A program made the position numbers. From assembly GCF_021869535.1 (NCBI RefSeq), contig NW_026262690.1, positions 79,112,001 to 79,176,000 of the forward strand: a stretch of DNA of 64,000 nt, given 5' to 3'. The stretch is from Mytilus californianus. Lineage: Eukaryota. The stretch's first letter is position 1; each line of letters starts with the position of its first letter. Shown piece after piece: positions 18,001-39,000 of this stretch.

Positions 18001-21000
18001 CACTATTACAGGAGCTGTATTAGGAGTTATATGTCTGGTAGCCGCCGTATGTGGCACTGTTTACCATATAAGGAAGAAAAGACGTTCATCCTCATATCTA
18101 AAAATTTAGAGTTAATAGGTGGATAAATTATTATGAAAAAAAACTTTTTTGTTATTAATAAACTGGTCCATATCTGTGATACTAAATGTTGAAGTCGATT
18201 CTGCATTATTACTTGATTGAAAGAAATTCCAAGTATAATTTTATTCGAAATATTTTTGTTTTGTCTAGATCAAGAACTGTAAAGGATTCATTAATTAACT
18301 TTTCATTTTCAATAACCGGTATATGCTTTATACATTTTTAGATTAAGGATGAACAATTAATTAAAGTTGACCTTGACCTACAAGTAAGTCTGATATCGGA
18401 GTAAAACCGAGTAGCAAAGTCTTTGACTACATTAGGCTAGAAAAACATAGATTTATTATTGATATATATATGGCTTACTATATGAAATATCATATAATGA
18501 AGTTTACATACATATATAGTTATTGATAACTATCGTGAAATGTTGAAAGCATCGCACCAAAATGAGATTAAACATTGTAAATTGTTATATTCAATATTTA
18601 CAATTGTTATGAATTTATATAAGTATTTTCAAAATAAATTGAATAACATAATTAGAAATGTCTCATTTGATATTGAATAATTCTGCACAACATGCGTTCA
18701 CGCAGGTTTTTGACTTTGGATTTTCTCAATCTGTAGTTTTCTATACTGTGTTTTGTGCATTGTTTTTGTCTGTTCGTCTTACTCCTATAGTGTTGTCTGT
18801 TGTTTTCTTTCGTCTTAGAAATTTGGTTGTCCTCTACAAATCTCTCTCCTTGATATTTTTTTCTAAATGTCTACTTTCTCCTCTGGCCATAATATTATCC
18901 TAATCTCACTTATGTTTTTCATTGATTGCTTGCTATCTTTATTGAAAAAATTATGGTTTATATTGCTATTAAATACTGCGAAACTATATTATATATGAGG
19001 GTATCACCAGCCCAGTAGTAATTCTGTGTTGACATGAAGTATTATTGATAAGGTCATAATTATAGATAAACTGTTAATAAAATTTTGAATATTTCGAAAT
19101 ACTAAGAATTTCTACCCCAGGAATAGATTACCTTAGCTGTATTTGGCAAATCCTTTTGGAATTTTGAGTCCACAATGCTCTTCAACTTTGTACTTTTATT
19201 TCCATTTTTTAACTTCTGTGATTCGAGCGTTGCTGATGAGTCTTTCGTAGACGAAACGCGCGTCTGGTGTACTAAATTTTAATCATGGTATCTATGATGA
19301 GTTCATTTTCTGTACATTTCGAAAATGTCTCCCTTGTCTAGGTAAAAACATCCAGTTTGACCACATCAGTATACACTCATTGTACCATGTTTTTTGTTGG
19401 AATTAGGATGACGCGTTAAAAATTACATAAGGTTGAAATACATACAGCATACTTGTTTTTTTGAAAGGTTTTTAAATGACGTCTATAAAAAGGCCATTTG
19501 CCTTATCCTATTCAGTTGATGATAATACACATTAAATACTATCTTACACCTGTTATAATATAGACACGTCCAGAAATAAAAAAAAATAATACTCAATAAT
19601 ACAGTTCAAACTTAATACATGTCAAATATTAACAACAAAAGAATGATATTATACACATTTTCCACGTTATGTTCCACCTTCCACAGTTAAATATCTCTAA
19701 GCTCTGAGTGTACATTTTTGCTTAAACTAGTCAATTCTGTCATAAAAAATCCCATTAATTTGCACAAGGCTACCATTATATGAAAACATAATTAATGATG
19801 TTATGGTGACAAAATTCGTTTTTTGAAATTAAAAATCAATTTTTAGTTTGACAAACAGGTAATTAAAATGATTCAATTTTACATTGCTTGTAGTGTATAA
19901 TTTATATATACTATGTAAAAGGCAAGTAAATGTGCTTTTTTTTATTTATTATTTGACAAATAATACAATAGGATCATTATATTAAAGGAGCTTTACCATG
20001 AACTGTTTAGATTGCTTATCTAAGATACCAAGATCTTAGAGTACTAATAATTAAAAACCGCTAAAATATACCTCTTGAAAAGAAAACAATATACTTTTTT
20101 TCCTAACATTACTCATCCAATTTATACCGAGTCAACTAGACACAATATCGTTTGGTATGAAAATAAGCACAAACTATTTGATGGATACGTGAATATATAT
20201 ATATATTTATATTTCTATAATACTCAAAATTCTTATTATGCACCAACGGAAGCGTTACGTTCTTGCTTATAACATCTAAATCATGCCGAAAGTTATTTTT
20301 TTCTAAGCATTGATTTTGCTCAAAATCTATTTTAAGCATTCATATAGCTCACAACTTATTCTTAGCATTCAATTTGCTCACAATCTAGGGATTTCTCTTT
20401 TTGTTGACCACAGTTTTTAATGACGCCGTTATATTCACTTTCATTATCAACCATAAAGTCTATTTTATGAAAAAGATAGAACTTTAGAATGTCAATCAAA
20501 ACCAGAATAAAAAATGTCGCTGATGATATCATGATAAATGAGTCAATATAAATAGATGTAGCACGAAAAGATCCGGATGCAATAAATAAAAAAAAAGCCG
20601 GTCTAACGCACCAAATTATAAAGAGGGCGCGGGCCATTGTATGGTTGAAAAGTGAAATGTTGAAACGACAGATGGAACATGTTTCTTTTGAAGGAGAATT
20701 CTTCAGTTCTGAAAAAGAAAACAAGATATAAATGAGGGTATGTTTAGGTACTTTATGAATGTTCTACAAAACTGTAAAGGATTCATAAATTTTGTAATTC
20801 ACATAATTATAAGCCTGATGAACTAGATTTTTTTTCAAAATCATACTTATACCTTTTACACAAGGATAAACTAGCTCACAATTTTGAGGTTCCGTTGAAG
20901 TTTTTAAATTTCTTTCTACTTAAAATAGTGCAATTGATTGATGTTTGCTTTACGCTCAGTAGCCAAGTAGCCAATATTTGATACATTTTCATAACGTGAT

Positions 21001-36000: not shown

Positions 36001-39000
36001 CTGAGGCTTAAGGTGCTAATGATATTTTTTTTTATTCATTTCGAAAACATACTGAAAGATAAGTTTTTTCTTAGTAGTCATTTTGCTCACATTTTATGGA
36101 TTTCTCTTTAGGTAAGCCACAGTTTTCGATTACATCGTTATATTCGCTTTCATTATCAACCGTAAATTCTACTTTTCGAAAAAGATAAAACCTGAGAATG
36201 TTCATCAAAACCAGAATAAAACATGACATTGATGATATCATGATAAATAAGTCAATATAAATAGACGCAACACGGAAAGAAGATCCAAATGCAATAAATA
36301 AGAAATAAGTCGGTCTGACGCACCAAATCATGAGGAGGGCCAGCGCCAATATATGGTTGTAAAGTACGATGTTGATACGACAGATAGGACATGTTTCCTT
36401 TGAAGGAGGATACCACAATTCTGAAATAGAAAATACAAGATATCAAATAGAGTATGATTAGATACATGAAATAGTATATGATTTTGCTATCAGACTGAGA
36501 TAAAGTGCTTTTGCTTTGTTATTCCATTAAATAAAAATTAGAGTATTTAGTTTCTCTAAAAAGGTGCCATTTTTACGATTATTTTCAGATTTTTGGCTTT
36601 CATATTTCACTACGATTAAACAAATTGTCTGATTATTATTTTTTAACGTCCAGTAGCCAATATTTCAATATATTTGAGACGAACTTAAGAAAGAGCTAGA
36701 TAGGTAAATAGTAATTTTTTTAAAAGTATGATAAATTAATTGGTTATAGCTTTAATTCTTTTACTCCGCAATTGATTTAAAAGATTTTTGCAAAGCAACA
36801 TCATACTAGTACCTCATCAATATTGAAAAATAACCCGGAAAGTATTTTCGTCTAATGATTTCTCAATCATGGCAATGATGAGGTTTGAAATACAAATAAA
36901 TTGAAATTAAATCAGTCCATTTTCTTTACTAGATAATTTTAGGAAGTACCCTTTTTCTTCCTTATTGTCATATTTCATAAAAGCTAAGAAACTAACCACG
37001 ACTTCAACCTATTTTTGCACCCTAAAAAGTTTTGCTCTAGAGGTTATGTACAAGTAAAGGTCGTATAAACTTCAACGATTACTTACCAGATAATGAGGAC
37101 GTTTTGTATAGTTTGTCGTACAGTACTGCTAAAGTAGGAATACTTAATAGCAAATATTCCAGAAAGTAACCACTCGTCCAAGGATCCAATTTTTCATAAC
37201 AGTAAAAAGCTGTGTTTAGTCGTGAGTCATCAAAAGCATAGAAGGAATATTTGTCCGTTATCAAGCATGTTCCCAACAAATTGTTCCATACTGTGATTAA
37301 TGTCAGCGATAATAAACTATAGATGAAACAAGCGACTGTTAATGAAGATTGTTTAAATGGGAGGGATGTCAAAATTATTGTGCCGAGTAGTTCAGAACAA
37401 ATCATCGAAACTGCAGGCATACGTTTTACGGGAAGAAAATACAAGGACAAATGTGTTGAATTCCAGTAATATTTCACGAAATATAAAACACGGAGTAATT
37501 CAAATGCATATTCAACTATAATAATGCTGATAAAAATTACTGAATATTTGTGTTGTGCGGACAAACATAGCGGCACAAGCGCGAGAAAAACAATCAAAGT
37601 CAAAATGATTATACAAATTTCTGGCACTAACGATAGATCCATATTCTTTTTATATCATTTCACTTCCAACTTTAAAATCTAAACACCCTGTAAAAGATCA
37701 ATGAAAATAAAATCTTTTTGTATTGCAGCCCAAAAAGGAAGTGTAATTGTACTCTTTAAAAATCGTTACGTGTTGTTTCTAGTTTTAAAGTTAATTTATG
37801 ATGAGTTAATTTAACGTATTATTGTTGAATTTTTCGACATGATTATTGTATAATCGAAATTCATAATTGTTTTACACTTATCACTACATATATTTAGTAA
37901 CAAAACACACTTGAATTTTACGAGAATGGTCTATATATGTTTCATGTGTATATATTTCTCAAGAAAACTGCGAACGTTAATTGTGTAGAATTTATACAAA
38001 ACCCAATACGGTATCTTTAGAACACGTTATGTTATGTACTATCTCTAACTGGCTCCCATAAGCTTACCTGTTTCCGTCGTATGGAATCAAGTGCACACCT
38101 TTTTCTGCCAAAGGGAAATTCTGATTAAAATTAACTTCCTGTTTAACATTTACTGAAGCGTTTCTTGAGGTAATCTTATGTTTATAAATCGCCATTCGAT
38201 ATAAATGATTGCATACTGAAGTCCTTTACTTTCTATTGTTATAAACCTAGCTTTAACATGATGTCAGAATATACCTTTTTACGATAATATGAATGCATAC
38301 TAAAAAGCTGTTAGGGGTTGTGAAATGTATAATTTCTTACAAAAGTTTTGACTTTTTTCTCTGGAAACCATATCACTTTGCTGCCCGCAGAAGTTAATAA
38401 GCGTGAAGCATATAATTGTGAAAAACAAGTATTCGTCTGAGGATTTATCTGTACCTGAAATGTGGTAGCGTATTTTGGGTCCGGCATAGTCTTACTTTCC
38501 TTATTGTAGCTAGCTTTCTGTTTATGAAAACGTAGGCAACTCTCTACATTCTGCTTTTGATTTTCATTTGATGAAGTTTAAAAAAAACAACAGAAAATGT
38601 AACAGTATTTCATGAGAAATGTTTAAAACGTTGACTGATTAATTTGACAAAAATACAGATTCGTGCAATATGCAATATCTGTACTTTTTTGTTCCATCTA
38701 AAGTGCTATTGGTCATGCGTTTTTTTGTGATTTATCAAACAAAACAATGCATTTCACATACTTTGATTACTCCAATGTTCAATAGAATGTATGGAAAGGT
38801 ACTAATGACTTCAATACACAGTTAAACACGATGGGTGCCTCATGTGGAACAGGATCTGCTTACCCTTCTAGAGCCTCTTATGTTGTTTTTGTAGACTGTC
38901 TTTTGGTCGTGTTTCTTTTTTTTGCCATGGCGTTATCAGTGTGTTATCGCCTTTTGATTTTGAATACCCCTTTGATATCTTCCACCTCTCTTTTAATATG

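What the first reader, a model, noticed from the sequence alone, without database searches (positions are those of the whole stretch)
20362..37642. Two paralogs of an unrecognised 7-TM protein family
Seen: two open, identically spliced genes encode seven hydrophobic segments with almost no N-terminal domain. Conserved features include an N-glycosylation sequon after TM2 (YWNRT/YWNST), a Cys at the start of TM3, a Trp in TM4, a Cys in the TM4-5 loop (LNTAFYC), Pro and Tyr in TM5, WCVRP in TM6, and a CxxC (CSIC/CPIC) in the TM5-6 loop. DRY and NPxxY are absent. Inference: N-out GPCR-like topology, perhaps a lineage-specific chemoreceptor or lipid receptor. I cannot assign it to a named family.
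Basis: partly seen in the sequence, partly recalled or inferred. Interest (0 to 1): 0.68.

Follow-up and report, generated by a model that had tools for sequence, protein, structure and literature searches.

The report
Orphan seven-helix membrane protein pair, mussel
Two neighbouring mussel genes encode a real, conserved seven-helix membrane protein that fits no named family and only loosely resembles cell-surface receptors of the GPCR type, so its function is still open.

Summary
The window is Mytilus californianus. It carries two minus-strand, two-exon genes: A (20362-22276, 330 aa, the same as NCBI's uncharacterized LOC127738606) and B (36071-37642, 301 aa). Both have one phase-1 intron at the same split Glu codon. 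They are 66-68% identical, lie in a tandem duplicated block, and evolve at dN/dS 0.36 (bootstrap 0.26-0.51).

Only HKYS, the TM3 Cys, LEY..P..Y in TM5, E..CxxC..N before TM6 and W..RP in TM6 are conserved across the whole family.

The family is very small. An exhaustive profile search of 1.84 billion representatives gave 11 hits. No Pfam or PDB sequence match appeared. The only species-named records are from two Mytilus species.

An AlphaFold model of moderate confidence (pLDDT 64) has seven long helices. Its best fold matches in PDB and in a viral library are GPCRs, but below significance (TM-score at most 0.50). Charge bias weakly favours the N-terminus outside.

I read it as an unnamed, taxon-restricted, GPCR-fold-like 7TM family, probably receptor-like. 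The chemoreceptor or lipid-receptor idea has no support: there are few copies and no coupling motifs. Gene B was never searched or folded as one joined chain.

The parts
21631..22276 (-). Gene A, coding exon 1 (ATG 22276-22274; 215 codons plus the first base of the split Glu codon); TM1-TM5
   Evidence: 100% identical over its full length to public protein P0001
20709..21630 (-). Gene A intron, 922 nt, GT..AG, phase 1
   Evidence: P0001 reads straight across this junction
20362..20708 (-). Gene A, coding exon 2 with stop TAA 20364-20362; CxxC, TM6, TM7, acidic tail
37087..37642 (-). Gene B, coding exon 1 (ATG 37642-37640; 185 codons plus the first base of the split Glu codon); lacks the 30-residue insert that A has in the TM4-TM5 loop
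36421..37086 (-). Gene B intron, 666 nt, GT..AG, phase 1, same position as in A
36071..36420 (-). Gene B, coding exon 2 with stop TAA 36073-36071
   Evidence: 104 of 112 aligned residues identical to Mytilus coruscus protein P0006
22277..25259 (-). Upstream flank of gene A, duplicated at 37643-39669. Blocks 21894-23480 ~ 37260-38765 (77%) and 24792-25259 ~ 39201-39669 (77%). Contains a conserved pyrimidine-rich tract plus AG at 22359-22358 (37689-37688 in B), which may be the acceptor of a 5'-UTR intron; that is inference only.
18382..20220 (-). Downstream flank of gene A. Its copy lies at 26426-28922 (73-81%), not next to gene B. About 7 kb of extra, repeat-rich DNA (28923-36064) separates gene B from its own downstream flank.

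Best explanation
These are two tandem paralogues of a small, taxon-restricted family of polytopic membrane proteins. So far the only species-named records are from Mytilus.

Shown:
- Both genes are intact and share one intron position.
- They evolve under purifying selection.
- They have full-length relatives elsewhere.

Inferred:
- The protein is a seven-helix bundle with the 8-residue N-terminus outside and the acidic C-tail inside, arranged roughly like a GPCR.
- On the outer half, conserved polar residues could line a ligand pocket: Ser79 and Cys82 in TM3, Glu192-Tyr193 at the start of TM5, Trp248, Arg251 and Pro252 in TM6, and an Asp at the start of TM7 in most members.
- The W-x-x-R-P kink in TM6 would act as the hinge.
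- On the inner face lie the invariant HKYS loop (TM1-2) and an invariant E..CxxC..N element that caps the N-terminal end of the TM6 helix. This could be a metal-binding, redox or acylation site, possibly together with the mostly conserved His 9 residues after the second Cys of the CxxC and a Cys in the C-tail.

My most likely reading is a receptor-like signalling protein with an unknown ligand and non-canonical coupling. It has no DRY or NPxxY, and the TM3-4 loop is only 4 residues. It is not part of a large chemoreceptor repertoire.
For: Real genes:
- The longest ORFs of the window, with identical phase-1 splice sites.
- dN/dS 0.36 over 299 codons; bootstrap 95% range 0.26-0.51, and 0 of 2000 replicates reached 1.
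- Gene A equals NCBI's 330-aa model P0001.
- Gene B's exon 2 is 93% identical (104/112) to a Mytilus coruscus protein but 68% to gene A, and pairs with it at 100/99 support. The duplication therefore predates that species split and both copies were kept.

Likely transcription in relatives:
- Uninterrupted 298-332-aa ORFs sit on contigs of only 1100-1225 nt and read across the intron site (P0002, P0009, P0010, P0014, P0015, P0017, P0018).
- Five others (P0005, P0020-P0023) stop with '..GK', as unspliced exon 1 of gene B does.

Seven helices.

GPCR-like fold:
- With the pLDDT 63.9 / pTM 0.59 model, all 48 rows listed from PDB are GPCR chains aligned over 276-374 columns.
- In the viral library 7 of the first 10 rows are named G protein-coupled receptors.
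- Language-model neighbours of the divergent member P0010 include TMEM116/7tm_1, Dicty_CAR and Ocular_alb clusters at 0.90-0.91.

N-out topology:
- No K/R in the N-tail of 10 of 10 full-length members.
- More K+R on loops 1, 3, 5 and the C-tail in 10 of 10.

Family-wide invariants.
Against: - The fold evidence is weak. No PDB or BFVD match reached E 0.001 (best 1.3e-3 and 1.3e-2). TM-scores were 0.23-0.45 by query length and at most 0.50 by target length, with rmsd 8-23 A.
- The model itself is only moderate: 82 of 330 residues have pLDDT below 50. A first model from 6 sequences scored 43.9.
- PDB is rich in GPCRs, which favours such hits.
- Language-model neighbours of gene A itself pointed elsewhere (THH1/TOM1/TOM3, PRRT3, GPR137_N, at most 0.90). 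All shared-feature counts (129-161) are below the 170 typical of true family members.
- No GPCR Pfam model matches at E up to 10.
- DRY, NPxxY and CWxP are absent.
- The charge bias for N-out is one residue in several members.
- The Asn-x-Ser after the CxxC is kept in 14 of 17 members. If it were glycosylated, that loop would be outside, which contradicts N-out.
- There is no expression data for these two genes themselves.
Confidence: 0.5

Rival explanations
1. A non-signalling seven-helix protein of internal membranes: a transporter, lipid handler or scaffold, in the manner of the GPR137 / THH1-TOM1 / PRRT3-type 7TM proteins. The conserved Glu (TM5), Arg (TM6) and Asp (TM7) would serve a substrate rather than a ligand.
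For: - Language-model neighbours of gene A's protein are THH1/TOM1/TOM3, UCP031277, PRRT3 and GPR137_N clusters at 0.86-0.88.
- No G-protein coupling motifs.
- The TM3-4 loop is 4 residues.
- Small family size.
- A conserved charged Arg lies inside TM6.
Against: - Those neighbours score below 0.9, which the tool rates as leads only.
- None of their Pfam models matches any of 24 members at E up to 10.
- No internal 3+1+3 repeat (hhalign probability 0.3%).
- No transporter appears among the 48 PDB rows listed.
Confidence: 0.25
2. One reading: a lineage-specific chemoreceptor (or lipid receptor) of GPCR type.
For: - Tandem duplicates with variable outer loops: a 30-residue insert in A's TM4-5 loop, and a sequon after TM2.
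- Weak GPCR-like fold.
- Bivalves do carry tandem, lineage-specific class A GPCR expansions proposed as chemosensory (PMC11886862; I saw the search-listing abstract and found passages).
Against: - Only two copies in 64 kb.
- Only 11 representatives at 50% identity among 1.84 billion proteins.
- Three small clades.
- dN/dS 0.36 with orthologue retention, rather than rapid birth and death.
- Nothing tested bears on a ligand or on sensory-tissue expression.
Confidence: 0.1
3. Opposite topology (N-terminus inside), with the CxxC at the lumenal or outer end of TM6 acting as a redox-active pair together with loop cysteines. This would make it a membrane thiol oxidoreductase in the manner of VKOR or DsbB.
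For: - The CxxC is invariant (17 of 17) and sits exactly at the N-terminal cap of a long helix: C226/C229, helix 227-259.
- The Asn-x-Ser three residues later is kept in 14 of 17 members.
Against: - Charge bias favours N-out in 10 of 10 members, and the N-tail has no K/R.
- The cysteine-bearing long loop would then be cytoplasmic.
- The loop cysteines are absent from clade III.
- No Pfam match to VKOR or DsbB.
- No such fold appears among the rows listed.
Confidence: 0.08
4. Not functional genes: decaying duplicates, transposon-borne ORFs, or hydrophobic-looking frames produced by A+T-rich DNA.
For: - A+T-rich DNA (31% G+C) favours Phe, Ile, Leu and Tyr codons.
- The flanks are repeat-rich.
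- No direct expression data for this species.
Against: - Both frames are open across a shared intron.
- dN/dS is well below 1.
- Orthologue-level conservation in another Mytilus species, and 24-30% identical full-length relatives with the same invariant motifs.
- Stop codons are A+T-rich, so long ORFs here are unexpected by chance.
Confidence: 0.03

Closest known systems
Class A (rhodopsin-like) GPCRs, including herpesvirus-encoded GPCRs
   Same: - Seven helices, a very short N-tail, a probable N-out/C-in orientation, and a Trp and Pro in TM6.
- In two of three clades, a Cys in TM3 and one in the TM4-5 loop.
- They are the best, though sub-threshold, fold matches in both libraries.
   Different: - No 7tm_1 profile match.
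- No DRY, NPxxY or CWxP.
- The TM3-4 loop is 4 residues.
- An invariant cytoplasmic HKYS and a CxxC cap on TM6, which I do not know from class A (recalled knowledge).
- TM-scores of at most 0.50.
Orphan or atypical GPCR-fold families named by the language-model search: TMEM116, cAMP-receptor-like (Dicty_CAR), Git3, ocular albinism GPR143
   Same: Similar size (about 300-350 aa), seven helices, and weak or absent class A motifs. They are neighbours of family member P0010 at 0.90-0.91.
   Different: Shared-feature counts of 129-140 are below the level typical of true members. The Pfam families sit on only 12-66% of those clusters' members. None of those Pfam models matches this family.
GPR137 / THH1-TOM1-TOM3 and PRRT3-type 7TM proteins
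   Same: Eukaryotic 7TM proteins without classical coupling motifs. They are neighbours of gene A's protein at 0.86-0.88.
   Different: The scores are below the tool's lead threshold, there is no Pfam match, and no solved relatives of these appear among the PDB rows listed.
Lineage-specific tandem class A GPCR expansions of bivalves (PMC11886862)
   Same: Tandem arrangement in a Mytilus genome, and restriction to a lineage (search-listing abstract and found passages).
   Different: Those are recognisable class A receptors in large expansions. This family is not recognised by the class A profile and is small.

Membership tests
Class A GPCR (Pfam 7tm_1) | Significant match to the 7tm_1 profile | tested here: not met
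   No 7tm_1 hit at E up to 10 for the 4 exon translations, for 5 full-length members, or for all 24 alignment members.
Class A GPCR (Pfam 7tm_1) | E/DRY at the inner end of TM3, NPxxY in TM7, CWxP in TM6 (motifs recalled from general knowledge) | tested here: not met
   The regex found none in genes A or B. One ERF in P0017 lies in the TM5-6 loop. TM6 has W-C-x-R-P instead.
Class A GPCR (Pfam 7tm_1) | Disulfide pair: Cys near the outer end of TM3 with a Cys in the TM4-5 loop | tested here: inconclusive
   The TM3 Cys is present in 17 of 19 rows. A loop Cys is present in clades I and II but absent from clade III. The bond itself is not testable here.
GPCR fold in general | Seven-helix bundle with the GPCR helix arrangement | tested here: inconclusive
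   Model pLDDT 63.9, pTM 0.59. All 48 PDB rows listed are GPCRs, but the best E is 1.3e-3, TMq is 0.23-0.45 and TMt at most 0.50. In BFVD the best rows are herpesvirus GPCRs at E 1.3e-2 or worse.
GPCR fold in general | N-terminus outside, C-terminus inside | tested here: inconclusive
   K+R near the membrane: inner loops exceed outer loops in 10 of 10 full-length members, by 1 to 6 residues. The N-tail has 0 K/R in 10 of 10. No experimental or dedicated topology predictor was available.
Other GPCR-type Pfam families (7tm_2, Dicty_CAR, Git3, Ocular_alb) | Profile match | tested here: not met
   None among 24 members at E up to 10. Only language-model leads at 0.90-0.91.
GPR137 / THH1-TOM1-TOM3 / PRRT3 | Profile match to PF06454, PF27607 or PF25987 | tested here: not met
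   None at E up to 10. Language-model scores of 0.86-0.88 only.
3+1+3 repeat 7TM carriers (SWEET, PQ-loop) | Internal repeat of a three-helix unit | tested here: not met
   hhalign of TM1-3 (and TM1-4) columns against TM5-7 columns gave probability 0.3%, E 0.2. No Pfam match.
Insect-type seven-helix ion-channel chemoreceptors (GR/OR) | Profile match, and N-terminus inside | tested here: not met
   No Pfam match. Charge bias leans the other way. None among the 48 PDB rows listed.
VKOR / DsbB-type membrane thiol oxidoreductases | CxxC at the lumenal end of a helix plus a loop Cys pair | tested here: inconclusive
   The CxxC at a helix N-cap is present and invariant. Its side of the membrane leans cytoplasmic. 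Loop cysteines are not family-wide. No Pfam match.

The most novel reading that the evidence does not exclude
This is a founding example of a new class of GPCR-fold (or independently evolved) seven-helix receptors confined to mussels or bivalves. Its output would not run through DRY/NPxxY and G proteins. Instead it would use an invariant cytoplasmic E..CxxC..N cap on TM6 together with the HKYS loop, for example as a metal- or redox-dependent switch that links ligand binding at the TM5/TM6/TM7 polar pocket to signalling.
Probability: 0.15. Interest if true: 0.7.

Novelty: new variant of a known kind. Interest (0 to 1): 0.4.

Why it matters
If the weak GPCR-like fold holds, this is one more receptor-like family that profile-based GPCR censuses of molluscs cannot see, because it carries none of the usual coupling motifs. 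It would offer a small, tractable case of two to a few genes, with clear invariant residues to mutate, for asking how a seven-helix protein signals without DRY and NPxxY. If the fold does not hold, it is an ordinary taxon-restricted membrane protein of unknown role. Such proteins are common in invertebrate genomes.

Tried and rejected
- Pfam on each exon, on 5 full-length members and on all 24 alignment members gave only noise. The most frequent hit was PhoLip_ATPase_C, in 6 near-identical clade III members, best E 0.004, below its cut-off.
- PDB by sequence: the family profile gave 0 hits at E up to 10. P0010 alone gave 3 hits at E 0.9-1.3 (beta-barrel proteins). P0001 alone gave 1 hit at E 0.029 (CalpT10, 47 residues over TM7). 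I treat all of these as chance.
- The first AlphaFold run, with 6 close sequences, was too poor to search with (pLDDT 43.9).
- The internal-repeat test was negative.
- Pfam on other long ORFs of the window gave nothing above its cut-offs.
- Rfam at gathering thresholds gave 0 matches.
- Literature: 'LOC127738606' appears in 0 papers. Two broader searches listed nothing on such a family.
The sources and taxa of the unnamed relatives therefore remain unknown.
- Not done:
  - Any search or fold of gene B as one joined chain.
  - DeepTMHMM, HHpred and RNA-seq.
  - Complex prediction, because no binding claim is made.

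
Full report
WHAT IS THERE.
The window has 29-35% G+C and no N runs. Stop-to-stop ORF listing and direct reading of the minus strand give two two-exon genes.

- Gene A: ATG 22276-22274, exon 1 to 21631, intron 21630-20709 (GT..AG, 922 nt), exon 2 20708-20362 with TAA at 20364-20362. The product is 330 aa.
- Gene B: ATG 37642-37640, exon 1 to 37087, intron 37086-36421 (666 nt), exon 2 36420-36071 with TAA at 36073-36071. The product is 301 aa.
- In both genes the intron is phase 1 and splits the same codon, G|AA (Glu).
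- An in-frame TGA lies shortly before each ATG, so the N-terminal tail before the first hydrophobic segment is 8 residues.
- Of the 11 ORFs of 110 aa or more in the whole window, 4 are these exons, and the two longest are the two first exons.
- tblastn of the four exon translations against the window finds only these two copies.

IDENTITY OF THE LOCUS.
Exon 1 of gene A is 100% identical over its whole length to the public protein P0001, 'uncharacterized protein LOC127738606 [Mytilus californianus]', 330 aa. That record's sequence continues into exon 2 exactly as my splice model predicts. The window is therefore California mussel DNA. It is not human.

HOW THE JOINED STEP WAS HANDLED.
I searched the window's genes exon by exon and did not join exons. 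Gene B was never searched or folded as one chain. Whole-protein analyses used the public record P0001 and other proteins returned by the searches.

THE TWO COPIES.
- A and B share 122 of 185 aligned residues in exon 1 and 77 of 114 in exon 2. A carries a 30-residue insert in the TM4-5 loop.
- Nei-Gojobori dN/dS is 0.33 for exon 1, 0.45 for exon 2, and 0.36 with pooled counts. The bootstrap 95% range is 0.26-0.51, and none of 2000 replicates reached 1.
- The duplicated DNA goes well beyond the coding exons. Blocks 21894-23480 ~ 37260-38765 and 24792-25259 ~ 39201-39669 are each about 77% identical.
- A's downstream flank, 18382-20220, matches 26426-28922.
- The two units (about 18.4-25.3 kb and 26.4-39.7 kb) therefore abut as a direct tandem duplication. 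About 7 kb of repeat-rich DNA (28923-36064) was later added between gene B and its own downstream flank.

THE FAMILY.
- Word-indexed searches gave 5, 8 and 13 proteins.
- An exhaustive profile search of 1,835,955,588 representatives gave 11 proteins at E up to 0.001.
- Besides two JGI rows labelled only 'hypothetical protein', the only named records are Mytilus californianus (P0001) and Mytilus coruscus (P0006).
- Trees of the exon-1 and exon-2 regions give three clades:
  - clade I, with A-type, B-type and a third type (P0008/P0012);
  - clade II (P0010, P0011, P0017-19);
  - clade III (P0009, P0014-16, P0020-23).
- Clades II and III are 24-30% identical to genes A and B.
- Gene B's exon 2 is 104/112 identical to the M. 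coruscus protein and pairs with it at 100/99 support. The A/B duplication is therefore older than that species split, and both copies were retained.
- Seven full-length relatives (298-332 aa) sit on contigs of only 1100-1225 nt and read across the intron site. Five others end in '..GK' just where unspliced exon 1 of gene B ends. I infer spliced transcripts and a conserved intron position, but I could not see those contigs' DNA.

MOTIFS.
- Family-wide (85% or more of rows) are only these: H31-K32-Y-S34 between TM1 and TM2; S79 and C82 in TM3; S112 and I116 in TM4; L191-E192-Y193, P199 and Y205 in TM5; the split-codon Glu216; E224, C226-x-x-C229 and N232 just before and at the start of the TM6 helix; W248 and P252 in TM6; M275 and L286 in TM7.
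- The sequon after TM2 and the Trp in TM4 are limited to clade I.
- The loop Cys is missing in clade III.
- DRY-like, NPxxY and CWxP motifs are absent from A and B.

FOLD AND TOPOLOGY.
- Hydropathy gives 7 segments in A and 6 in B at the chosen threshold. B's TM5 homologue falls just below it.
- AlphaFold with 6 close sequences was poor (pLDDT 43.9).
- With 24 rows it reached pLDDT 63.9 and pTM 0.59. The helices are 6-28, 32-60, 72-93, 98-129, 184-210, 227-259 and 267-302. The TM1-2 and TM3-4 connections are short, and the long TM4-5 loop and the tail are disordered.
- Foldseek against PDB found no match at E up to 0.001. All 48 rows listed are GPCR chains (best E 1.3e-3; TMq 0.23-0.45; TMt at most 0.50).
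- Against viral predicted structures the best rows are herpesvirus GPCRs (best E 1.3e-2). Of the first 10 rows, 7 are named G protein-coupled receptor, one is US27D, one is unnamed and one is a phage histidine kinase.
- Language-model neighbours are leads only and disagree between members: THH1/TOM1/TOM3, PRRT3 and GPR137_N for P0001 (at most 0.90); TMEM116/7tm_1, Dicty_CAR and Ocular_alb for P0010 (0.90-0.93).
- Charge counts favour N-out/C-in in 10 of 10 full-length members, but by as little as one residue. The N-tail never carries K or R.
- No internal repeat was found.
- No Pfam family and no PDB sequence relative.

INTERPRETATION.
- What is shown: two real, selected, tandemly duplicated genes of a very small, unnamed seven-helix family.
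- What is inferred, at about even odds: a GPCR-like bundle, N-terminus out. It would have a polar pocket formed by TM3, TM5, TM6 and TM7 residues towards the outside, and two invariant elements on the cytoplasmic face, HKYS and the E..CxxC..N cap of TM6.
- Because the CxxC sits at a helix N-terminus on the probable cytoplasmic side, I favour a metal, redox or acylation role for it over a structural disulfide. This is speculation from position alone.
- The chemoreceptor idea is not supported, given the small family and the orthologue retention.
- Rivals are a non-signalling endomembrane 7TM protein, an inverted topology with a lumenal redox CxxC, and, now unlikely, non-functional ORFs.

COMPARISON AND NOVELTY.
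The nearest known things are GPCR-fold proteins, at fold level only. Membership of class A or of any other named family fails every sequence test made here. The protein record exists in NCBI as 'uncharacterized'. The locus name appears in 0 papers of the searched library. Two broader searches listed nothing about such a family. PMC11886862 describes tandem lineage-specific class A expansions in bivalves, including Mytilus (search-listing abstract and found passages). I rate the finding a new variant of a known kind, of moderate interest.

LEFT OPEN.
- Expression in this species.
- Copy number in the rest of the genome, and the taxonomic range.
- A dedicated topology prediction, and profile-profile homology.
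- Anything that needs gene B as one chain.

Noticed in passing
window 28923-36064: About 7 kb of repeat-rich DNA separates gene B from the copy of the downstream flank (26426-28922) that matches gene A's flank. It holds dispersed repeats (27052-27405 ~ 35208-35567 at 90%; 32352-32809 ~ 33750-34217; 32448-32915 ~ 44640-45105) and a 150-aa ORF at 34227-34679 (+) with no Pfam match. These are probably transposon insertions made after the duplication.
   Followed up: partly
window 22357-22360 and 37687-37690 (minus strand): A conserved pyrimidine-rich tract ending in AG lies about 80 nt (A) and 45 nt (B) upstream of each ATG, inside the 77%-identical upstream block. It looks like the acceptor of a 5'-UTR intron, so each gene may have an untranslated first exon further upstream.
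   Followed up: no
window 1368-2282; 44451-45449; 12140-12425: Tandem arrays: self-matches offset by about 150 and 300 nt at 1368-2282, a roughly 500-nt unit doubled at 44451-45449, and short tandem copies at 12140-12425.
   Followed up: no
window 13393-13470 and 40587-40664: A 78-nt stretch repeated in inverted orientation at 97% identity, 27 kb apart. A similar piece at 24727-24793 matches 40656-40590. This may be a short mobile element.
   Followed up: no
gene A residues 130-159 (window about 21800-21890, minus strand): Gene A and its A-type relatives (P0002, P0003) carry a 30-residue, Cys- and acid-rich insert in the TM4-5 loop. Gene B and all other clades lack it.
   Followed up: partly
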